Notes under the pieces: model-generated
Databases searched by the model: none
What the model was told of the DNA's origin: nothing
The model's input: the letters and a program-made list of their open reading frames with translations, nothing else
Shown here: positions 3,501 to 13,464 of the stretch, one piece after another
Position numbering within the stretch: position 1 is the stretch's first letter
How the letters are laid out: the number at the start of each line of letters is the position of its first letter
Made by a program: the position numbers and the translations under genes
Assembly (NCBI GenBank): GCA_902619815.1
Contig: CACNGH010000005.1
Location: 15,640-79,639, forward strand
From: an uncultured Pelagibacteraceae bacterium
GTDB lineage: Bacteria; Pseudomonadota; Alphaproteobacteria; Pelagibacterales; Pelagibacteraceae
Reading direction: 5' to 3'
Length of the DNA stretch: 64,000 nt

Positions 3501-4691
3501 TTATCTTTGTTTTTTAGTTTTAAACTTTCCACCTTTAATTTCTTGCTCTAAAAAAGAACCTTCAGCTTCACCAACTGCGGTAAAAGCTACTCCAGTTGCA
3601 CCTTCGTAGTTAATCTTTTTACCTTTAGCTAGTAAATCTAAACCTTTTTTTAGTTCACCTGGATAAATCTTTGTTCCAGGAGCATTAGCAACATCCATCA
3701 CATTTTTTGCAATAGAACCTCTGTCTGCAGAATTACCTGCTTGCATTGCTAAAACGATTAAAGCTGCTGCATCGTATGACTCGCCTGTATAAGGTCCAGA
3801 AGAGTCTATACCACTTGCTTTTGCAACATCAGCAAAAACACCAGCACCTTTTCCAGTAGAACCAGGCATAGATCCAAAAGATTTACTCAAATCTTTTCCA
3901 AATGCATCAACCAAAGATTGACCGATCATACCATCAGATAAAATAAATTTATCAAATGCACCAGAATCTAATGAAGCTTGGATAATTCCTTTTCCACCTT
4001 GGTCAAGATATCCAATTACAGCTACAGCGTCTCCACCAGCTGAAGCAAGTGTTGCAACTTCTGATGAATAGTCAGCTTTACCGTCTTCGTGAGCTGTTAC
4101 TGTTGTTACTTTAATGCCATGAGCTTTAACAGCTGCTTCGTATACGTCAGCTAAACCTTTTCCATAGTCATTATTAGTATAAGTAATAGCTACACTTTTA
4201 ACTTTTCTATCTTTTGTAATATCTGCAAGAATTTGACCACCTCTAGCATCTGATGGAGCAGTTCTAAAGAAATATCCATTATCATCTAAAGTAGTTAATC
4301 CTGGAGAGGTTGCTGAAGGTGAAATCATTACTACACCGTTTGGTACAGCAACGTTTGATGCAATAGCACCTGTAACACCTGAACAATCAGCTCCCATGAT
4401 AGCAGCTACACCTTGTGAAATAATTCCTTCAGCTGCTGCAGTTGCTGCTGCAGAGTCGACACAAGTTGAGTCTGCTCTTACTGGTTCAATTTTTTTTCCA
4501 CCTAATAGCGAACCTGAATCAGAAGCTTCTTTAAATGCAAGCTCTGCTGATGCTGCCATAGCTGGTGTAAGAGATTCGATAGGACCTGTGAATCCTAAAA
4601 TAATCCCCATCTTGATAGCATGTCCGTCTGCCATTACATTCGATCCGAAACTAGAAACAAACATAAATACAGCGATAAATAGTTTTCTCAT
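3501..4691 (-). CDS. ABC transporter substrate-binding protein, LivK/LivJ family
   Basis: Signal peptide; GIILGFTGP, MISPSATSP, FFRTAPSD, YDAAALI; SD GAGG upstream. Confidence 0.9.
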   Translation of the reverse strand: MRKLFIAVFMFVSSFGSNVMADGHAIKMGIILGFTGPIESLTPAMAASAELAFKEASDSGSLLGGKKIEPVRADSTCVDSAAATAAAEGIISQGVAAIMGADCSGVTGAIASNVAVPNGVVMISPSATSPGLTTLDDNGYFFRTAPSDARGGQILADITKDRKVKSVAITYTNNDYGKGLADVYEAAVKAHGIKVTTVTAHEDGKADYSSEVATLASAGGDAVAVIGYLDQGGKGIIQASLDSGAFDKFILSDGMIGQSLVDAFGKDLSKSFGSMPGSTGKGAGVFADVAKASGIDSSGPYTGESYDAAALIVLAMQAGNSADRGSIAKNVMDVANAPGTKIYPGELKKGLDLLAKGKKINYEGATGVAFTAVGEAEGSFLEQEIKGGKFKTKKQR

Positions 4692-4803
4692 TATCTTCCT
4701 CTATATTGTTAAAAATTTATAAAAACTAATTTAATTATGAATAATTTAAATATTCAATGACTAAATTATCGTGTTTTAAAGCAGTTTATCGCAGTAAATT
4801 GAT

Positions 4804-6285
4804 TTATCTAATTGAGAATGGATCTAATGAAGGTTCATCAGATGTATAAAACCAAGTTGTTTTTACTCTTGTATAATCTTTAATAGAATCTATGCCAGCT
4901 TCTTTGCCGTACCCACTGTCCTTTATACCTCCAAATGGAGCCGAAGGTGAAATTAGTCTGTAAGTATTAACAAAAGTAATTCCAGCTCTTATTGCCTTAG
5001 ATACTCTCATTCCTCTTGATAAATTGCTTGTATAAACACCTGAGGATAATCCATATTGATTATCATTCATTTTATTAATTACTTCCTCCTCTGTATCAAA
5101 TTTCATTACTGATAATATAGGCCCAAATAACTCATTTTCTGCAGTTGGCAGATTGTGATTATCACATTCTATAATTGTTGGTGGGAAGTAGTATCCTTTG
5201 TTTGAAAAGGAGTCTCTTTTACCACCACACTTAATTTTTCCACCTTGATCAACCGTATCTTTAATATTTTTTTCAATTGTCTCTAATTGTTTAAAACTAC
5301 TTAAAGGACCCATCTCTGTATCCAGATCCATTGGAGCTCCTATTTTTATTTTTGAAGCTCTACTAGAAAGCTTATCTAAAAATTCTTTATAAATTCCTTT
5401 TTGTATGTAAAGCCTTGAACCTGCAATACAGCTTTGTCCACTTGCTCCAAAAATTCCAGCAGTTATTCCATTCATTGCATTTTCTTGCTCCGCATCGTCA
5501 AATACAGCGACTGGACTTTTTCCACCAAGCTCTAAACTTACTTCAGAAAGATTTTCTGCTGAATTTTTAATAATACGTCTTGCAGTTTCTGGTCCTCCAG
5601 TAAATGCAATTTTCTCTACTAGATTATGTGTTGTTAAAGTTTTACCACAAGGATCGCCAAAACCTGTAATGACATTAACCACTCCTTTAGGTATGCCAGT
5701 TTTCTCAATAAGTTTTGCAAATTCAAACAAAACAGCAGGTGCAAGCTCTGAGGATTTTATAACCACAGTATTTCCCATTGCAAGGGCAGGGGCTAATTTA
5801 GTTGCTGTTAAGAACATTTGAGAGTTCCATGGAATGATTGCAGCAACAACTCCAATAGGTATTCTCGTTGTTATTGCTTGAACATTTGGTTTGTCTATTG
5901 GAAGAACTGTGCCTTCAACTTTATCAGCTAAACCCGCATAATAATCATAGTATTCTGCAATATAGTTTGCTTGTTGTTTCGTTTCTCTAAAAAGTTTTCC
6001 AGTATCTATGGTTTCAACCTTACCAAGCATCTCAGCATTTTTTCTTAACTGATCTCCAATTGCTCTTAAAAATTTAGCTCTATCTCTTGGAAGTAATTTT
6101 GGCCATTCACCTTCAAATGCTTTTTGTGCAGCTTTTACAGCTCTATCCACATCTTTTGTACTTGCCTCTGGCACAACTGCCCAAGGTTCATTATTTTCAG
6201 GATTTAAGGTTTCAAATGTTTTTTTACTTTCAGAGTCAACCCACTCCCCATCAATAAACATTTTATATTGTTTAAGTTTGCTCAT
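4804..6285 (-). CDS. NAD(P)-dependent aldehyde dehydrogenase (possibly TgnC-like)
   Basis: PWNSQ, FTGG, LELGGKSP, catalytic Cys in GQSCIAG, ELFGP, PFGG. Confidence 0.9.
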   Translation of the reverse strand: MSKLKQYKMFIDGEWVDSESKKTFETLNPENNEPWAVVPEASTKDVDRAVKAAQKAFEGEWPKLLPRDRAKFLRAIGDQLRKNAEMLGKVETIDTGKLFRETKQQANYIAEYYDYYAGLADKVEGTVLPIDKPNVQAITTRIPIGVVAAIIPWNSQMFLTATKLAPALAMGNTVVIKSSELAPAVLFEFAKLIEKTGIPKGVVNVITGFGDPCGKTLTTHNLVEKIAFTGGPETARRIIKNSAENLSEVSLELGGKSPVAVFDDAEQENAMNGITAGIFGASGQSCIAGSRLYIQKGIYKEFLDKLSSRASKIKIGAPMDLDTEMGPLSSFKQLETIEKNIKDTVDQGGKIKCGGKRDSFSNKGYYFPPTIIECDNHNLPTAENELFGPILSVMKFDTEEEVINKMNDNQYGLSSGVYTSNLSRGMRVSKAIRAGITFVNTYRLISPSAPFGGIKDSGYGKEAGIDSIKDYTRVKTTWFYTSDEPSLDPFSIR

Positions 6286-7060
6286 TAATATCTAAAAAAT
6301 TTTTAATAGTTAAATTTACTTCATCTGCACACTCAATACTACAAAGATGTTTGCCGTTTTCTATTATCTTCAATTTGCTGTTGTTGATTATTTGATTTAA
6401 TTCTTTTGCCATTTTAATTGTTGATCCCATATCAAGTTCACCAGTAATAATTAAAGTATTAACTTTTATTTTGTCAAAATCTTCATCATTTTTATGTTTA
6501 ACAAAAAGCTCATATAATTTTAGAAAATTTGTCATGTTATTTGACGAAATAATTGAGCTTATTTTTTCATACATATCTGGATTTTTTTCTAAATATTTGT
6601 CAGTAAACCATCTTTTAAGAGCTTGTTTCGAAAGCTTTAATTCTTTTTGAGCTTGCTCAAAACGTTGGTTTACAGTTTTTTGTTGTTCATCTGATCTTTT
6701 ATAAATTGAACCTATAAGTATTAATGATTTTAATCTTTGATTAAATCTCGATGCAAAATTCCTAGCAATCAAAGAACCGATCGAAAAGCCAATTAAGTGT
6801 AACTTTTGTATCCCAAGTTCATCTGTTAAGTCAATTATTTGGTCTGCAAGATCATCAAAAGATATGTTTTTTTTATTTAAAGAAGACTTACCGTGACCCA
6901 AAATATCGTAAGCAAGAACGGTTCGGTTTTTGAAAAAATCTAATTGGGGTTGCCAAATTTCGTAAGTTAAGCCAACACCATGAATAAACACGATGGGAAT
7001 ATCCTGCTCTTTTTTATTGAAGAAATAATGAGTTCCTGATGCAGTAGTTGCTATGGTCAT
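6272..7060 (-). CDS. Alpha/beta-fold hydrolase (possibly TgnD-like)
   Basis: FIHGVG, YDILGHGKS, nucleophile elbow GFSIG, GELD, C-terminal GKH. Confidence 0.88.
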   Translation of the reverse strand: MTIATTASGTHYFFNKKEQDIPIVFIHGVGLTYEIWQPQLDFFKNRTVLAYDILGHGKSSLNKKNISFDDLADQIIDLTDELGIQKLHLIGFSIGSLIARNFASRFNQRLKSLILIGSIYKRSDEQQKTVNQRFEQAQKELKLSKQALKRWFTDKYLEKNPDMYEKISSIISSNNMTNFLKLYELFVKHKNDEDFDKIKVNTLIITGELDMGSTIKMAKELNQIINNSKLKIIENGKHLCSIECADEVNLTIKNFLDINEQT

Positions 7061-7066
7061 TAAGTT

Positions 7067-7654
7067 TTACTTAGGCTCAATACCCATCTCTTTCATATCC
7101 TGATATCTATCACCTGTCCTTGCATGGGCTCTTCCACTTGAAGCACCTCCTATTGCGATCACAATCTCATCATCAAATGGTGCATCGTGAATAGTAAACT
7201 CATGAGTTAAATAATATGGCCTCAAACCCGAGTCTGTTTTGTGCATCATGGGAATTGATATTTTTGAACCAGCTGGACCCCTAGTATTTGTAAAACTTAA
7301 ATAAGATGTGCCGCCAACAGCATCTCTAAATTTATTCCCAAATCTTAAAGTATGTATAAACGCTGAGGCATGCTCTATCTCTCCGTTTAATCCAACAACT
7401 CCAGCTTTTCCATATGCTAGTATTTTATCAGGTGAACCCATCTCTTCAATTAATTCAGGCACAAGTAAATCTCCAAGTTTAGGAGCTAAATCCAAAATAG
7501 TTGGTCTAAGATCTTCAACAAAGCCTTGCCCGTGCCAAGGATTTTGAAAGACTGCAGCTACTGAAACTAATAAAACTGGTTCCTTAGCTTTCTTTCCACC
7601 TTCAATAAAAGTTTTGTCTACAAATTTTGTAAATTTCCTGATTTCTAATTTCAT
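7067..7654 (-). CDS. DUF1185 / 'amino acid synthesis family' protein
   Basis: AAVFQNPWHG, YGKAGVVGLNGEIEHASAFIH, IPMMHK, DAPFDDEIVIA, GRAHAR as recalled for this family. Confidence 0.8.
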   Translation of the reverse strand: MKLEIRKFTKFVDKTFIEGGKKAKEPVLLVSVAAVFQNPWHGQGFVEDLRPTILDLAPKLGDLLVPELIEEMGSPDKILAYGKAGVVGLNGEIEHASAFIHTLRFGNKFRDAVGGTSYLSFTNTRGPAGSKISIPMMHKTDSGLRPYYLTHEFTIHDAPFDDEIVIAIGGASSGRAHARTGDRYQDMKEMGIEPK

Positions 7655-8820
7655 TAACTTGCTTTTTCTATGTTGGAGCTATCTAAATTTATTTTAGGAA
7701 TTACTTCATCATTAAATAATTTAATACTTCTCATACAAGCCTCATGGTCTATTCCTGGAAAATTTGACCACACCTGAAGGTTTTGTAAATTCAACTCTGA
7801 TTTTAATTCATTGATCCTGTTAACAACATATTCTGGAGTACCAAATAATAAATTTCTTTTATGTAAAAATTCATAATTTAGCAATTCCAACTTATGTTTT
7901 GTTTCAGGTAATTCTTCACCTGGATCCATATGATTTCCTAAACCACGCCAATGACAAACCCATCTCATATAATTTATAATATGTTCACCAGCTAATTTTT
8001 CAGCTTCTTCCATAGTTTCAGCAACAAACATATCGCGTACTAAAGATATACCTTCACCCAAGGGAACTTCTCTATTCTCTGCTTTTGACTTTGCATCTTT
8101 GAAAATCTCAAATCTTTTCTTAAGAGCTTTAACTGTAGGTATCCACATAATAGTATTCAAACCGTTTTGTGCAGCCCATTCAATTGATCTCGCACCATCT
8201 ACTACTTGCCAAATTGGTGGATGTGGACTTTGTTTAGGCTTAGGGACAACACTAATTTTTTTTATTTCATTCGTCTCAATGTCCACAAACTCTTCATTAG
8301 GCGGGCTCATGTCGTGTTGCCACACAAAATTTGGAGATGGATAAGTATAGAATTCACCCTTATGACTAAAAAATTCCTCAGTCCATGCTTTTTTCATTAT
8401 TGTAAGAGACTCTTCAAACAATCTAAAATTTTTTGCTTGGTCCTTTAGATCGGCTTCTTTATTTAAATTCATTGCCTCTCTTCCATAAATTCCTCTGCCT
8501 ATACCAACTAGAGCTCTTCCGTTTGATAATTGATCTAATAAAGCAATGTCTTCAGCCAGTCTTAAAGGATTATGAAATGTAATGACATTGCATGCTTGTC
8601 CAATCTTTATTTGCTTAGTTCTTGCAGCAGCATCAACTCCCATCATTAATGGATTAGTACAAGACTCCATTCCCTCATGATTAAAATGATGCTCGGTATA
8701 CCAAATAGAGTCCCAATTATTTTCGTCACAATAAGTTGTTATCTCTTTTGTTTCATCTAGCAATTGATTGTAAGGTTTATGATCCCAATTAGTGGTGTTA
8801 CAAAAATATCCAAACTTCAT
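7654..8820 (-). CDS. Luciferase-like (LLM class) flavin-dependent monooxygenase
   Basis: WYTEHHF, NPLRLAEDIALLDQLSNGR, GIGRG, PKPKQSPHPPIW, GTPE, FNDEVIP; SD AAGGAGG. Confidence 0.92.
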   Translation of the reverse strand: MKFGYFCNTTNWDHKPYNQLLDETKEITTYCDENNWDSIWYTEHHFNHEGMESCTNPLMMGVDAAARTKQIKIGQACNVITFHNPLRLAEDIALLDQLSNGRALVGIGRGIYGREAMNLNKEADLKDQAKNFRLFEESLTIMKKAWTEEFFSHKGEFYTYPSPNFVWQHDMSPPNEEFVDIETNEIKKISVVPKPKQSPHPPIWQVVDGARSIEWAAQNGLNTIMWIPTVKALKKRFEIFKDAKSKAENREVPLGEGISLVRDMFVAETMEEAEKLAGEHIINYMRWVCHWRGLGNHMDPGEELPETKHKLELLNYEFLHKRNLLFGTPEYVVNRINELKSELNLQNLQVWSNFPGIDHEACMRSIKLFNDEVIPKINLDSSNIEKAS

Positions 8821-8908
8821 TCGAACCTCCTTAAATAATTAAATCTAAGACGATCGATCCCACTTTCGTAAATTTATGAATTTACCGACGAGTTATGTAT
8901 CGTTCTAT
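8821..8908 (-). ncRNA. Candidate cis-regulatory structured 5' leader (putative translational riboswitch) of the LLM operon
   Basis: SD-sequestering hairpin 8821-8857 competes with stem ACGAU/AUCGU (8899-8903 with 8850-8854), which encloses hairpin GUAAAUU-CAUA-AAUUUAC; hand folding only. Confidence 0.45.
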
Positions 8909-8914
8909 AAAAGA

Positions 8915-8943
8915 ACTCTATTATTAGTAATGTTTATATTCAA
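8915..8943 (-). promoter_or_regulatory. Putative sigma70 promoter of LLM operon
   Basis: TTGAAT (8938-8943) - 17 nt - TAGAGT (8915-8920) on minus strand. Confidence 0.5.
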
Positions 8944-9009: not shown

Positions 9010-9471
9010 TTATTTTTTTAATTTAGAGGTAAATTGTAGATTTTGTGACGTAAAATTTGATTTATTATCTTTAATAAACTTATCCATAATTTCTAATTTT
9101 TCATTTTCAAATTCAGTTACTTTTCTTTTACTTAAATCAATATAAAGAGAAATCCATTCCATTGAGGCCGAAATTTCTTTTTTACCTTTTTTGATCATTT
9201 CCATTTTGACATGAAGTCTTTTAGTGTCATGATCAAAATAAGTCATTTGGATATCTACTTCTTCACCTAATCTTACTTCATTTAAATATTTAGTATTTGT
9301 TTCAACCACCATAGTTGTTCTATTTAAATTTTTAGCAGCGCTTTCTCCCATGTTAAATTTTTCAAGTGCAACTTCTAAAGCTTGATCAAATACAAGGACG
9401 TAGTATGCCATATTCATATGACTGTTGTAGTCTACCCATTCTTGCTTGACTTCAAAACTTTTTAATAACAT
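9010..9471 (-). CDS. Acyl-CoA thioesterase (4HBT-like hotdog fold)
   Basis: EWVDYNSHMNMAYY motif. Confidence 0.85.
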   Translation of the reverse strand: MLLKSFEVKQEWVDYNSHMNMAYYVLVFDQALEVALEKFNMGESAAKNLNRTTMVVETNTKYLNEVRLGEEVDIQMTYFDHDTKRLHVKMEMIKKGKKEISASMEWISLYIDLSKRKVTEFENEKLEIMDKFIKDNKSNFTSQNLQFTSKLKK

Positions 9472-10417: not shown

Positions 10418-11164
10418 ATGAATTCAACAAAAATAGATCCTAAATATATCAGCAAATCAAATCCGAGAGTTGGGCTAATTGCACTTGCGAGCGATTTAAT
10501 GATTGAAAAGGATTTTATAAATGTAATTAAAGATAAAGATATAGATTTTTTTGTAAATCGAATTGAGTGTTATAATCCTCTAACAAAAGAAAACTTAATT
10601 AAAATGTCAGAAAAAGTAACAGAAGTTACAAAAGATATTTTACCAGATCAAGATTTAGATTGTGTAGTATATGGCTGTACCTCAGGAACTATTGCTGTTG
10701 GACATGCATCAATTGAAAAAAAAGTAAAGGCAGCAAAACCTAAAGCAGATGTGACCACACCAAGCACAGCTGCAATTACAGCACTTAAAAAAATGAATAT
10801 TAATAAAATTTGCCTATTTACTCCTTATAGCAAAAAACTAAATGATGAAGTTTTAGAGTATTTTAAAAGTGAGGGTTTCGATATTACATCGAATGCTTAT
10901 TTTGATATCGAGTCTGATCTTGATATTGGTAAAGTTGATCAAAATTATTTGTATGAAGTATTATCTAACATCGATTTAAATAATGCAGATGCTCTGTTTG
11001 TTTCATGTACAGCTCTTCCAGTTTTACCCATCATAGATAAATTAGAAAAGAAATTAAATACTATAGTTTTATCAAGCAACCAGGCATTGATTTGGGATAC
11101 CCTTGTTAAAATTAATAAAAATAATTCAGTAGAAGGATTTGGCAAATTATTCCAAATAAATTGA
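10418..11164 (+). CDS. eutA: Ectoine utilisation protein EutA-like (Asp/Glu racemase / maleate isomerase family)
   Basis: Two catalytic Cys in YGCTSG and FVSCTAL; FTPY, SSNQA; coupled to EutD-like gene. Confidence 0.7.
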   Translation: MNSTKIDPKYISKSNPRVGLIALASDLMIEKDFINVIKDKDIDFFVNRIECYNPLTKENLIKMSEKVTEVTKDILPDQDLDCVVYGCTSGTIAVGHASIEKKVKAAKPKADVTTPSTAAITALKKMNINKICLFTPYSKKLNDEVLEYFKSEGFDITSNAYFDIESDLDIGKVDQNYLYEVLSNIDLNNADALFVSCTALPVLPIIDKLEKKLNTIVLSSNQALIWDTLVKINKNNSVEGFGKLFQIN

Positions 11165-12333
11165 TGCTTTTTACAAAAGAAGAGTACAAACAAAGATTAA
11201 ATAAAGTTCAACGTATGATGCAAGAAAAAGGCATAGAACTTTTAATTTCTCATGATACCAATAACTTAAACTATTTAACAGGTTATGATGCCTGGTCATT
11301 TTATTATGCTCAGTGTGCGATTGTGCACGTCAATGCTGAGGAGCCCCTGTGTTTTGTCAGAGCTCAAGATGCAGGAGGTGCTTATTTAAAAACTTACTTA
11401 AAAAATGAAAATATTCTAGTTTATGATGAGTCTTATATTCATACGTGGCCAAAACATCCTTATGATTACTTGGTAAATATACTTAAAGACAGAAAGTGGG
11501 ATAAATTATCAATTGGTTTAGAGATGGATGCACATTATTTTACAGCATTTTGTTATGAAAAAATTAAATCTGGATTGCCTAATGCTAAACTTAAAGATAG
11601 CGATCGCCTAGTTAATTGGGCAAGATTGGTTAAGTCAGATCCTGAAATAACCTATATGAAAGCTGCTGCTAAAATTTCTGAAAGAGGAATGAAAACTGCC
11701 ATGGAAGTTATTAATCCAGGTGTAAGGCAATGTGATGCTGTTGGGGAAATTCAAAAATCATTATTTTATGGTACAGAAGAATTTGGAGGTGAATACGCAA
11801 GTATTGCAACATTGGTACCAACAGGGAAAGGAACCTCAGCATCTCATTTGACTGCTACCCAAGATAAATTTGCAGAAGGTGAAGCAACAATTGTTGAATT
11901 ATCAGGAACTTATAAGAGATATCATGCTCCAATAGCTCGAACAGTTTTATTAGGCAAACCTGATCAAAAAAAAATTGATACCATGAAGAAAACAATTGAA
12001 GCTCTGAATTCAGGTATTAGCGCGATCAAACCAGGTAATACAGCCGATGATGTAGCTCAAGCATTTTGGAAAATTTTAGATAAATATGGAATAGAAAAAA
12101 AATCTAGAACAGGATATTCGATTGGAATTGGTTATCCTCCAGATTGGGGAGAACACACTTTAAATATTTATAAAGGTGATATGACTGTGCTTAAACCAAA
12201 TGTCTGTTTTCATATGATCGCAGTAATGCAATTTGGTGATTGGGGGGTTGAAGCTTCTGAAGCGATTAGAGTTACTGAGAATGGCTCTGAATTATTCTGT
12301 GATTTTCCAAAAGAACTCCATATTAAGAGCTAA
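11164..12333 (+). CDS. eutD: Ectoine hydrolase EutD/DoeA (M24 peptidase fold)
   Basis: YLTGYDAWSFYYAQ, LVNWARLVKS, SASHLT, RTGYSIGIGYPPDWGEHT; ATG overlaps eutA stop (TGATG). Confidence 0.85.
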   Translation: MLFTKEEYKQRLNKVQRMMQEKGIELLISHDTNNLNYLTGYDAWSFYYAQCAIVHVNAEEPLCFVRAQDAGGAYLKTYLKNENILVYDESYIHTWPKHPYDYLVNILKDRKWDKLSIGLEMDAHYFTAFCYEKIKSGLPNAKLKDSDRLVNWARLVKSDPEITYMKAAAKISERGMKTAMEVINPGVRQCDAVGEIQKSLFYGTEEFGGEYASIATLVPTGKGTSASHLTATQDKFAEGEATIVELSGTYKRYHAPIARTVLLGKPDQKKIDTMKKTIEALNSGISAIKPGNTADDVAQAFWKILDKYGIEKKSRTGYSIGIGYPPDWGEHTLNIYKGDMTVLKPNVCFHMIAVMQFGDWGVEASEAIRVTENGSELFCDFPKELHIKS

Positions 12334-12378: not shown

Positions 12379-13464
12379 ATGTCTAATAATCCAGAATTCG
12401 TTAAATTTGATAAAGTTGACAAAAGCTATGATGGTAAAGTTCTAGTTGTAAAAGATCTTCAGTTAGATATTGCGGAAGGTGAGTTCATTACTATGCTTGG
12501 TCCCTCTGGATCCGGCAAAACAACTTGTCTGATGATGCTTGCTGGCTTTGAAACTCCAACAAACGGAGAGATCTTGTTAGATGGAAATATAATTTCTAAT
12601 ATTCCACCTCACAAAAGAGGAATAGGAATGGTTTTTCAAAATTATGCACTTTTTCCTCATATGACTGTTTATGAAAATCTAGCTTTCCCTTTAAGAGTTA
12701 GAAAAATGGAAAAAGATGAAATTGATAAGAAAGTTGACAAAGCTTTATCAATGGTTTCACTAAATGGGTTTGAAACAAGAATGCCAGGACAACTTTCAGG
12801 AGGACAACAACAAAGGGTAGCTGTAGCTAGAGCTTTAGTTTTTGATCCTGCAGTGGTTTTGATGGACGAACCTTTAGGTGCGTTGGATAAAAATTTAAGA
12901 GAGAGTATGCAATATGAAATTAAACATATTCATGAAAGCATTGGAGTAACTGTAGTTTACGTTACTCATGATCAAAGTGAAGCTCTTACAATGTCGAATA
13001 GAATTGCAGTGTTTAATGATGGAAAAGTTCAACAGCTATCAAATCCTTCAGAGCTTTATGAAAAACCAGTAAATTCATTTGTCGCAGAGTTTATTGGTGA
13101 AAATAATACCTTTAATGGTGAGGTATCAGATATTTCAGGAGATGAATGTAAAGTTAAGCTGTCTAACGCAGAAATTATAGCTAGTGCTATTTCAGTAAAA
13201 TCTAAAGGTGAAAAAACAACAGTATCTTTGAGACCTGAGAGAGCTTTAATCGAACCAAGTGAAAAAATGGACAATATGTTTAGTGGCAAGATAGAAGAGG
13301 TAATTTATCATGGTGATCATACTAGAGTTCGAATTAATTTATTAGGAAACCCAGAATTTATTTTAAAGGTCCCAAACAGCACTTCCAATCTAGAACTTAA
13401 GGTCAAACAAGATATTAAAATCGGTTGGAATAGTTCTGATGCAAGAGCTTTAGACCCAAAATAA
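12379..13464 (+). CDS. potA: PotA-like ABC transporter ATP-binding protein
   Basis: GPSGSGKT, VFQNYALFPHM, LSGGQQQR, DEPLGALD, TOBE-like C-terminus. Confidence 0.88.
   Translation: MSNNPEFVKFDKVDKSYDGKVLVVKDLQLDIAEGEFITMLGPSGSGKTTCLMMLAGFETPTNGEILLDGNIISNIPPHKRGIGMVFQNYALFPHMTVYENLAFPLRVRKMEKDEIDKKVDKALSMVSLNGFETRMPGQLSGGQQQRVAVARALVFDPAVVLMDEPLGALDKNLRESMQYEIKHIHESIGVTVVYVTHDQSEALTMSNRIAVFNDGKVQQLSNPSELYEKPVNSFVAEFIGENNTFNGEVSDISGDECKVKLSNAEIIASAISVKSKGEKTTVSLRPERALIEPSEKMDNMFSGKIEEVIYHGDHTRVRINLLGNPEFILKVPNSTSNLELKVKQDIKIGWNSSDARALDPK

What the first reader, a model, noticed from the sequence alone, without database searches (positions are those of the whole stretch)
8821..8943. Candidate novel translational ON riboswitch heading a regulator-less catabolic operon
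Seen (minus strand): promoter TTGAAT-N17-TAGAGT puts the transcript start near 8908, giving an ~88-nt leader, long for this genome. Its core (8850-8903) is 21/54 G+C in otherwise very AT-rich intergenic DNA. The RNA reads AGAACGAUACAUAACUCGUCGGUAAAUUCAUAAAUUUACGAAAGUGGGAUCGAUCGUCUUAGAUUUAAUUAUUUAAGGAGGUUCGA-AUG. Fold A: UCGAUCGUCUUAGAU pairs with AUUUAAGGAGGUUCGA (~14 bp with G-U pairs, one mismatch, one bulge), burying the whole AAGGAGG SD up to the AUG. Fold B: ACGAU pairs with AUCGU, the core of that anti-SD strand, closing a domain with an internal loop (ACAUAA/AUCG), a CUCG/UGGG helix and hairpin GUAAAUU-CAUA-AAUUUAC. The two folds are mutually exclusive. Established: this is the layout of ligand-activated translational riboswitches, and SAR11-type genomes are known to use riboswitches. 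Inference: the operon's substrate (possibly a pyridine betaine) or a pathway product stabilises fold B, replacing the transcription factor that similar operons carry elsewhere.
Basis: partly seen in the sequence, partly recalled or inferred. Interest (0 to 1): 0.85.

Follow-up and report, generated by a model that had tools for sequence, protein, structure and literature searches.

The report
Orphan riboswitch candidate in SAR11
The 88-base leader in front of a ring-cleaving monooxygenase operon of the ocean bacterium Pelagibacter (SAR11) is a conserved folded RNA that matches no described RNA family. It most likely acts as a small-molecule switch that uncovers the ribosome-binding site when the operon's still unidentified substrate is present.

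Summary
Promoter, leader and both folds are at the stated coordinates; the only slip is 20/54 G+C, not 21/54. The window's sequence alone folds no better than shuffles (z -0.68). The case is comparative.

- All 18 LLM orthologs found by protein search (54-93% aa identity, two families) carry the same domain of about 60 nt.
- In 151 Pelagibacterales genomes the motif (75) and the LLM gene (76) occur in the same genomes. The one exception is an LLM cut by a contig end. The motif ends 20-30 nt before the start codon.
- P1 and P2b covary. P2b varies from 11 to 40 nt.
- The junctions ACAUAA, AAG and GGGAUC did not vary in the sequences read.
- The 3' strand of P1 and its extension also pairs with the ribosome-binding region. 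Forcing the aptamer fold raises predicted Shine-Dalgarno accessibility in 64 of 71 platform variants.

No Rfam 15 family matches, and the SAR11 RNA surveys I could read do not describe it. Related DUF1185-hydrolase clusters in other Proteobacteria carry a GntR or LysR regulator instead.

Best reading: a new translational ON riboswitch class. The ligand is unknown and may be trigonelline-like. Binding is untested. This scan had already flagged the same motif on other SAR11 genomes.

The parts
8938..8943 (-). -35-like hexamer TTGAAT
   Evidence: Read. Comparable -35/-10 pairs lie at the same distance in many unrelated upstream contexts.
8915..8920 (-). -10-like hexamer TAGAGT after a 17-nt spacer; predicted transcript start near 8908
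   Evidence: The -10 ends 16 nt before ACAUAA, which is the modal distance among 62 distinct upstream contexts. The start is not mapped experimentally.
8850..8903 (-). Aptamer-like domain (core): P1, J1/2, P2a, P2b hairpin, AAG bulge, J2/1
   Evidence: CM R1 scores it 75.7 bits, E 3e-14, and it is the only hit in the own genome. Structure is supported.
8899..8903 (-). P1 5' strand ACGAU (possible extension to about 8908)
   Evidence: Pairs with 8850-8854. P1 columns show GC/CG/AU and UG/UA/CG exchanges.
8893..8898 (-). J1/2 ACAUAA, unvaried junction
   Evidence: Identical in all 18 protein-anchored orthologs, down to 54% aa identity.
8889..8892 (-). P2a 5' strand CUCG
   Evidence: Pairs with UGGG 8859-8862. 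The fourth pair varies GU/AU/GC.
8866..8888 (-). P2b stem and variable hairpin
   Evidence: Basal pairs switch UA to CG and GC to AU. 70 distinct versions of 11-40 nt; 66 of them fold with at least 4 bp.
8863..8865 (-). AAG bulge between P2b and P2a, unvaried
8859..8862 (-). P2a 3' strand UGGG
8855..8858 (-). J2/1 AUCG (AUC unvaried, then 1-3 purines)
8850..8854 (-). P1 3' strand AUCGU, shared with the anti-SD helix
8843..8857 (-). 5' strand of the SD-sequestering helix (UCGAUCGUCUUAGAU); overlaps J2/1 and P1 3' strand
   Evidence: MFE fold. In 67 of 71 platform variants the MFE pairs the ribosome-binding region with the P1 3' strand or its extension.
8821..8836 (-). 3' strand of the sequestering helix, containing the Shine-Dalgarno AAGGAGG (8826-8832)
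7654..8820 (-). Luciferase-like monooxygenase gene, first gene of the controlled operon
   Evidence: PF00296, E 8e-43. Nearest solved structures are luciferase and 3,6-diketocamphane monooxygenase.
3501..7654 (-). Rest of the operon: DUF1185/AA_synth (7067-7654), alpha/beta hydrolase (6272-7060), aldehyde dehydrogenase (4804-6285), LivK-type binding protein (3501-4691)
   Evidence: The gene order is conserved in relatives.

Best explanation
The leader is an undescribed riboswitch candidate that controls translation of the LLM-DUF1185-hydrolase-ALDH(-binding protein) operon. The transcript starts a few bases before the domain.

In the default state, the 3' strand of P1 and the CUU-rich bases after it pair with the Shine-Dalgarno region and the spacer before AUG. 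This hides the ribosome-binding site.

When a small molecule binds the pocket formed by the unvaried junctions (ACAUAA, AAG bulge, GGGAUC), P1 and its extension are stabilised. That withdraws the anti-SD strand and opens the Shine-Dalgarno sequence, so translation is switched on.

The ligand is most likely the substrate taken up and oxidised by the operon, an N-heterocycle of the trigonelline type.

Shown here: conservation, covariation, strict gene association, the overlap of the two folds, and the absence of a match to any known family. Inferred: that a small molecule binds, the direction of the switch, and the ligand.
For: (1) Conservation. All 18 LLM orthologs found by protein search, down to 54% aa identity in a second family, carry the domain although their upstream DNA is unrelated.

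(2) Gene association. In the same 151 Pelagibacterales genomes the motif is in 75 and the LLM in 76. The only discordant genome has its LLM cut by a contig end. The own genome has a single copy.

(3) Structure. On a MAFFT alignment of 89 distinct aptamers, 90.2% of cells pair and 9 pairs change on both sides. 0 of 500 shuffles reach the observed values, and slid controls reach at most 49%. On the model-fitted alignment 96% pair. RNAalifold finds the same helices. P2b is a hairpin of variable length.

(4) Expression platform. There are 72 distinct platform sequences. The predicted SD unpaired probability is 0.27 free, 0.59 with core P1 forced, and 0.73 with extended P1 forced. It rises in 64 of 71 variants. 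Sequestering helices differ in sequence between lineages but keep the pairing.

(5) Promoter-like boxes lie at a constant distance. The leader has no AUG before the start codon, so no upstream ORF.

(6) No adjacent regulator among the neighbouring genes examined. Related clusters elsewhere have GntR or LysR genes.

(7) No Rfam match.
Against: - No binding, probing, reporter or transcript-start data exist.
- The window's fold alone is unremarkable (z -0.68).
- Covariation rests on few independent events among close kin. The blocks ACAUAACUC and AAGYGGGAUC were fixed by the pattern used to collect most sequences, so their invariance is shown only by the 18 protein-anchored cases. The 75 model hits were not read base by base.
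- Complementarity between the P1 3' strand and the ribosome-binding region beats shuffles only moderately (mean z -1.65; 26 of 71 variants at 5% or below).
- In a few lineages the sequester helix stays closed when only the 5-bp core P1 is forced (L032, L038, L050). Whether the extended P1 opens it in these three was not checked.
- Some leaders lack a clear SD (L137).
- The enforced aptamer costs 3.8-6.3 kcal/mol in the model.
Confidence: 0.62

Rival explanations
1. The same conserved structured leader is bound by a protein or a small RNA rather than a metabolite. It would then be a protein-dependent translational operator, as in ribosomal-protein leaders or PyrR and BglG-type systems.
For: Conserved unpaired bases and a helix that competes with an SD sequester fit protein binding as well as metabolite binding. 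No ligand has been shown.
Against: No RNA-binding regulator gene travels with the operon in any locus examined. The motif occurs once per genome, so a dedicated trans factor would serve a single target. SAR11 genomes are known to use metabolite riboswitches (PMC2704228).
Confidence: 0.15
2. It is a riboswitch but works the other way (OFF), or it senses a pathway product or cofactor rather than the substrate.
For: In some lineages a long sequestering hairpin can coexist with the 5-bp core P1 (L032, L038, L050). A residual 7-bp hairpin still covers the first SD bases in the aptamer-forced fold of the window.
Against: The P1 3' strand and its extension are the anti-SD strand, not the SD itself. 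Forcing P1 raises SD accessibility in 64 of 71 variants and lowers it in 3. Catabolic operons are usually induced by their substrate (general knowledge).
Confidence: 0.1
3. It is a ligand-independent element: an RNA thermometer, or a leader that only sets mRNA stability and translation level.
For: The SD is masked by an AU-rich hairpin of the kind thermometers use. A SAR11 groES thermometer candidate has been described (supplement of PMC6429828).
Against: A thermometer does not need about 25 unvaried unpaired bases, a covarying P1 and P2b, or a closing helix that competes with the masking hairpin.
Confidence: 0.06
4. The conservation acts at the DNA level, as an operator for a transcription factor or an integrase attachment site, and the RNA folds are incidental.
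For: Extra copies of the element flank inserted DNA, and one copy is followed by an integrase-family gene.
Against: Compensatory changes keep the pairing. The hairpin tip varies freely in length. The orientation relative to the LLM gene is fixed. The element lies downstream of the promoter-like boxes. Integrases typically exploit sequences that are already conserved, such as tRNA genes.
Confidence: 0.04

Closest known systems
add adenine riboswitch of Vibrio vulnificus (translational ON purine riboswitch; from my own knowledge)
   Same: The logic is the same. The 3' strand of the closing helix P1 is also part of the helix that masks the Shine-Dalgarno sequence, so ligand-stabilised P1 turns translation on for a gene that consumes the ligand.
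   Different: The purine aptamer is a three-way junction with loop-loop contacts. This domain is an unbranched hairpin with two internal loops. No Rfam purine model matches it.
THF-II riboswitch (folE motif, Rhizobiales; PMC6800512)
   Same: A small (about 55-60 nt) unbranched P1-bulge-P2 aptamer in Alphaproteobacteria that acts on translation. It has highly conserved unpaired bases and a strict association with one gene.
   Different: In THF-II the ribosome-binding site is the right shoulder of P1, so the ligand turns expression off. Here P1 holds the anti-SD strand. The sequences are unrelated, there is no Rfam hit, and the gene is catabolic rather than folE.
Orphan riboswitch candidates of SAR11 strain HIMB5 (TIGR03647, fcbT1-I/II and RS05825 motifs; PMC6429828)
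   Same: Same clade, same kind of evidence, and confined to SAR11 and marine metagenomes. All are translational platforms.
   Different: The gene associations differ (symporter subunit, TRAP transporter, unknown protein) and so do the architectures. The conserved words of this motif are absent from that paper's held supplements.
Trigonelline catabolic cluster tgn of Acinetobacter baylyi ADP1 with its regulator (Perchat et al. 2018; paper not held, recalled from memory; TgnB is a luciferase-like enzyme per PMC11354265)
   Same: Same enzyme set: luciferase-like oxygenase, DUF1185 protein, alpha/beta hydrolase and aldehyde dehydrogenase. DUF1185 proteins 55-58% identical to the SAR11 one lie next to a hydrolase (and in two loci an ALDH) in other Proteobacteria.
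   Different: Those clusters carry a GntR/FCD or LysR regulator and no such leader. The LLM beside them is only 27% identical to the SAR11 LLM (L263). No flavin reductase is adjacent here. The substrate may therefore differ.

Membership tests
Riboswitch (cis-acting metabolite-sensing mRNA leader), generic | Conserved aptamer with a secondary structure supported by covariation | tested here: met
   90-96% of cells paired, 5-9 pairs with changes on both sides, shuffles and slid controls far lower.
Riboswitch (cis-acting metabolite-sensing mRNA leader), generic | Constant position in the 5' leader of a consistent gene or pathway | tested here: met
   motif and LLM in the same 75 genomes, 20-30 nt apart. 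Extra copies occur only beside inserted DNA.
Riboswitch (cis-acting metabolite-sensing mRNA leader), generic | Expression platform that shares bases with the aptamer | tested here: met
   (thermodynamic models only). Complementarity against shuffles is moderate.
Riboswitch (cis-acting metabolite-sensing mRNA leader), generic | Direct, selective binding of a small molecule without protein | not testable with these tools
   Needs in-line probing, ITC or a similar assay.
Riboswitch (cis-acting metabolite-sensing mRNA leader), generic | Ligand-dependent change of gene expression | not testable with these tools
   Needs reporters or cultures.
Any Rfam 15 family (4227 models) | Score at or near the family's gathering threshold | tested here: not met
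   no hit on the motif, even at E<=10, in the window and ten diverse homologs.
THF-II riboswitch (folE motif) | RBS forms the 3' shoulder of P1; association with folE | tested here: not met
   Here the SD lies 18 nt downstream of P1 and pairs with the P1 3' strand. The gene is an LLM. The family description was read.
Purine-type ON riboswitch (add) | Three-way junction aptamer | tested here: not met
   The model has no branch point and RNAalifold gives one unbranched hairpin.
Tgn-type trigonelline catabolic operon | Co-occurrence of DUF1185, alpha/beta hydrolase and ALDH genes | tested here: met
Tgn-type trigonelline catabolic operon | TgnB-orthologous oxygenase with a TgnA flavin reductase | tested here: inconclusive
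   The LLM beside a related DUF1185-hydrolase pair is only 27% identical (L263). No reductase is adjacent in the window.
RNA thermometer (fourU/ROSE-like) | The SD-masking hairpin alone accounts for the conserved element | tested here: not met
   The conserved, covarying domain lies upstream of the masking hairpin and competes with it.

The most novel reading that the evidence does not exclude
This is the first riboswitch class for a phytoplankton-derived pyridine betaine (trigonelline or a close N-methylated heterocycle). It would replace the GntR or LysR regulator of related operons, letting the ocean's most abundant heterotroph switch on ring-cleavage catabolism without any protein sensor. 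Its sequence is conserved enough that genomic islands use it as an attachment site and rebuild it on insertion.
Probability: 0.25. Interest if true: 0.85.

Novelty: new member of a known kind. Interest (0 to 1): 0.72.

Why it matters
SAR11 cells are among the most numerous organisms in the sea and have very few transcription factors. How they decide which dissolved compounds to consume is therefore largely unknown.

A new riboswitch class present in about half of the sampled Pelagibacterales genomes would add a sensor for an unidentified dissolved organic compound. Its aptamer would be a direct biochemical handle: find what binds the 65-nt RNA and the substrate of an abundant, uncharacterised ring-cleavage pathway is known. 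LLM clusters with thousands of member sequences occur in marine metagenomes.

It would also add a small ON-type aptamer to the short list of catabolic riboswitches.

Tried and rejected
- Rfam at gathering thresholds and at E<=10, on the window and ten homologous loci: nothing on the motif.
- Single-sequence folding significance: not significant.
- Generic promoter and terminator scan: it lists neither the proposed promoter nor any terminator, so transcription attenuation was dropped.
- Literature. No paper links a riboswitch with trigonelline or with an LLM in SAR11. The SAR11 RNA surveys describe other motifs (PMC2704228; PMC6429828). The 26- and 50-genome surveys do not cover it. The homarine hom operon has a different gene set (FAD protein, HomB, peptidase, ALDH, HomR), so it is not this operon. 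The Tgn paper PMC5948990 is not held.
- The search for homologous proteins with the LLM returned only SAR11 relatives and no informative names.
- The search for related loci returned only relatives at 90% identity or more.
- Seven exact pattern matches outside the SAR11-like lineages (Bifidobacteriaceae, Desulfomonile, Flavobacteriaceae, Eudoraea, Cloacimonetes, an unclassified alphaproteobacterial MAG, Acidobacteriota) lack P1 and the LLM. They were treated as chance.
- A P1 extension without a bulge fits less well than one with a single bulged base (86.5% against 90.2% paired).

Full report
**What is in the window**

- TTGAAT (8943-8938), a 17-nt spacer and TAGAGT (8920-8915) predict a start near 8908 and an 88-nt leader.
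The rest of the spacer is 21% G+C.
- The LLM is followed by a DUF1185/AA_synth protein, an alpha/beta hydrolase, an aldehyde dehydrogenase and a LivK-type binding protein. None of the neighbouring genes examined is a regulator.

**The two folds**

This fold is no better than shuffles (z -0.68). The single sequence therefore proves nothing.

Enforcing P1 (ACGAU 8903-8899 with AUCGU 8854-8850) and P2a gives fold B at a modelled cost of about 3 kcal/mol.

**Comparative evidence**

A protein search found LLM orthologs in 18 relatives from two families (54-93% aa identity). All 18 have the same element directly upstream, although the DNA further upstream is unrelated. The element reads, 5' to 3':
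- P1 5' strand (usually GCGAU)
- ACAUAA
- CUC plus one base (P2a)
- P2b hairpin
- AAG
- Y-GGG (P2a)
- AUC plus 1-3 purines
- P1 3' strand (usually GUCGU)

An exact-pattern scan of one genome per species returned 120 stretches. Nearly all are Pelagibacteraceae. A few are records titled HIMB59, MarineAlpha5 or a 'Gammaproteobacteria' bin, and seven are evident chance hits.

From 89 distinct aptamers (alignment A2) RNAalifold predicts P1, P2a and P2b on its own.

Pair counts:

| Alignment and structure | Cells paired | Pairs changed on both sides | Controls |
|---|---|---|---|
| A2 (MAFFT), P1 extended with one bulged base | 90.2% | 9 | 0 of 500 shuffles reach it; slid partners at most 49% |
| A2 (MAFFT), P1 extended without a bulge | 86.5% | 7 | slid partners at most 44.6% |
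| A3 (model-fitted), core structure | 96% | 5 | slid partners at most 45% |

Clear compensations include:
- GCGAU/GUCGU to GAAGAC/GUUUUC (L004)
- UA to CG and GC to AU at the base of P2b
- AU to UA in the P1 extension

P2b exists in 70 versions of 11-40 nt, and 66 of them fold with at least 4 bp.

Caveats: the sequences are close kin, so independent events are few. The two conserved blocks were fixed by the search pattern. Their invariance rests on the protein-anchored set, since the model hits were not read base by base.

**Gene association**

Covariance model R1 finds one copy in the window's own genome. It finds matches in 75 of 151 sampled Pelagibacterales genomes. The LLM is in 76 of the same 151. 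The single discordant genome has its LLM cut at a contig end. The motif ends 20-30 nt before the start codon. The downstream gene order is conserved, sometimes with a TPP-dependent enzyme inserted after the LLM.

**Expression platform**

There are 72 distinct sequences between the aptamer and the start codon. The masking helix differs in sequence between lineages but is kept:
- UCUUAGAU/AUUUAAGG in the window
- UCUUUAAA/UUUAAAGG in most of the genus
- CUUUUUAUU/AAUAAAAGG in the second family
- CUUAA/UUAAG plus GUCGAC/GUUGAU in another group

In 67 of 71 variants the free fold pairs the ribosome-binding region with the P1 3' strand or its extension.

| State modelled | Mean SD unpaired probability | Variants up / down / unchanged |
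|---|---|---|
| Free ensemble | 0.27 | - |
| Core P1 forced | 0.59 | 60 / 2 / 9 |
| Extended P1 forced | 0.73 | 64 / 3 / 4 |

Direct complementarity between the two strands beats shuffles only moderately (mean z -1.65). A few lineages keep a long hairpin closed when only the core P1 is forced (L032, L038, L050). The ON logic is therefore well supported, not proven.

No terminator is present. The window's leader has no AUG before the start codon.

Promoter-like boxes end at a modal 16 nt before ACAUAA across 62 different upstream contexts. The transcript would then begin at the foot of P1.

**Known families**

- No Rfam 15 family matches, even at E<=10, in the window or ten diverse homologs.
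- The SAR11 surveys describe other motifs, and later surveys do not cover this one.
- In architecture the nearest is THF-II, which has the opposite logic.
- In mechanism the nearest is the add adenine ON switch (my own knowledge).

**Ligand**

The enzyme set matches what I recall of the trigonelline (Tgn) pathway. TgnB is luciferase-like (PMC11354265).
- DUF1185 proteins 55-58% identical to the SAR11 one sit beside a hydrolase, and in two loci an ALDH, in other Proteobacteria. The LLM next to them is only 27% identical.
- 8 of 10 such loci carry a divergent GntR/FCD or LysR regulator.
- The SAR11 LLM is closest to luciferase and to a type II Baeyer-Villiger monooxygenase among solved structures.

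The substrate is therefore probably a trigonelline-like ring compound, but it is not established. The hom (homarine) operon described in 2026 has a different gene set.

**Earlier notes of this scan**

The same motif was flagged on other SAR11 genomes (e1-5451722, e1-5282416). My results agree with those notes and were obtained independently here.

**Verdict**

This is a real, conserved, cis-acting structured RNA (about 95% sure). It is most likely a new small-molecule ON riboswitch class (about 60-65%). The ligand is unknown; a trigonelline-like compound is about 25-30% likely.

Noticed in passing
L250 (G179:C1:1009500-1024000): aptamer copies at 1984-2062, 6351-6431, 8150-8229, 12827-12907; L251 copies at 1469-1536 and 11110-11177; L085; L069; L100: Some Pelagibacter genomes have 2-4 direct copies of the aptamer within 2-20 kb. 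Only the last copy adjoins the LLM. The DNA between copies carries unrelated cargo: TPR proteins fused to radical-SAM/SPASM or methyltransferase domains, NifU and CBS proteins. In nBUS_29 a 535-aa protein with a Phage_integrase domain (E 8e-7) follows the first copy. The copies differ in their P2b loops and share the conserved blocks. This looks like islands that integrate into the riboswitch sequence and bring a replacement copy, as tRNA-targeting islands do. Several upstream copies have a broken P1. Seen.
   Followed up: partly
L005, L036, L126, L237, L239, L241, L249 upstream of the aptamer: One group of upstream contexts shares a TGnTAnnnT (extended -10-like) box 19-25 nt before ACAUAA instead of the TTGAAT-N17 type. 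This may be a promoter delivered with inserted DNA.
   Followed up: no
L016:2673-4150, L100:3929-5626, also L031, L032, L068, L104: In the second family and in several lineages of the genus, a thiamine-diphosphate-dependent enzyme (TPP_enzyme_N/M/C) is inserted between the LLM and the DUF1185 gene. The window lacks it.
   Followed up: partly
L088:7543-7921 (minus strand): One single-cell genome has the aptamer followed by the first codons of the LLM (MKF), joined to what reads as the C-terminal end of the aldehyde dehydrogenase, judged by eye. This looks like a deletion that removed most of the operon.
   Followed up: no
L137:4293-4371 and L088: These divergent leaders keep the aptamer but have no recognisable Shine-Dalgarno sequence or masking hairpin before AUG (the platform is almost pure A/U). 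If they regulate at all, the mechanism must differ.
   Followed up: no
window 10418-12333 (+): Divergently placed genes resemble the ectoine-utilisation proteins EutA (Asp/Glu racemase-type, 202 bits, below the curated cut-off) and the DoeA/EutD hydrolase (455 bits, below the cut-off). They are followed by a PotA-type ABC transporter. This may be another osmolyte-catabolism module beside this operon.
   Followed up: no
L263, L261, L270, L271, L273, L274, L279, L280: In other Proteobacteria, DUF1185 genes 55-58% identical to the SAR11 one are followed by an alpha/beta hydrolase and preceded by a divergent GntR/FCD (6 loci) or LysR (2 loci) regulator.
   Followed up: yes
window 9010-9471 versus L008, L009, L011-L013, L100:178-1143: The gene upstream of the leader differs among genomes: a 4HBT thioesterase here, a 2OG-Fe(II) oxygenase in many relatives, a DAO-type oxidoreductase or others elsewhere. 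The leader travels with the LLM, not with its upstream neighbour.
   Followed up: partly
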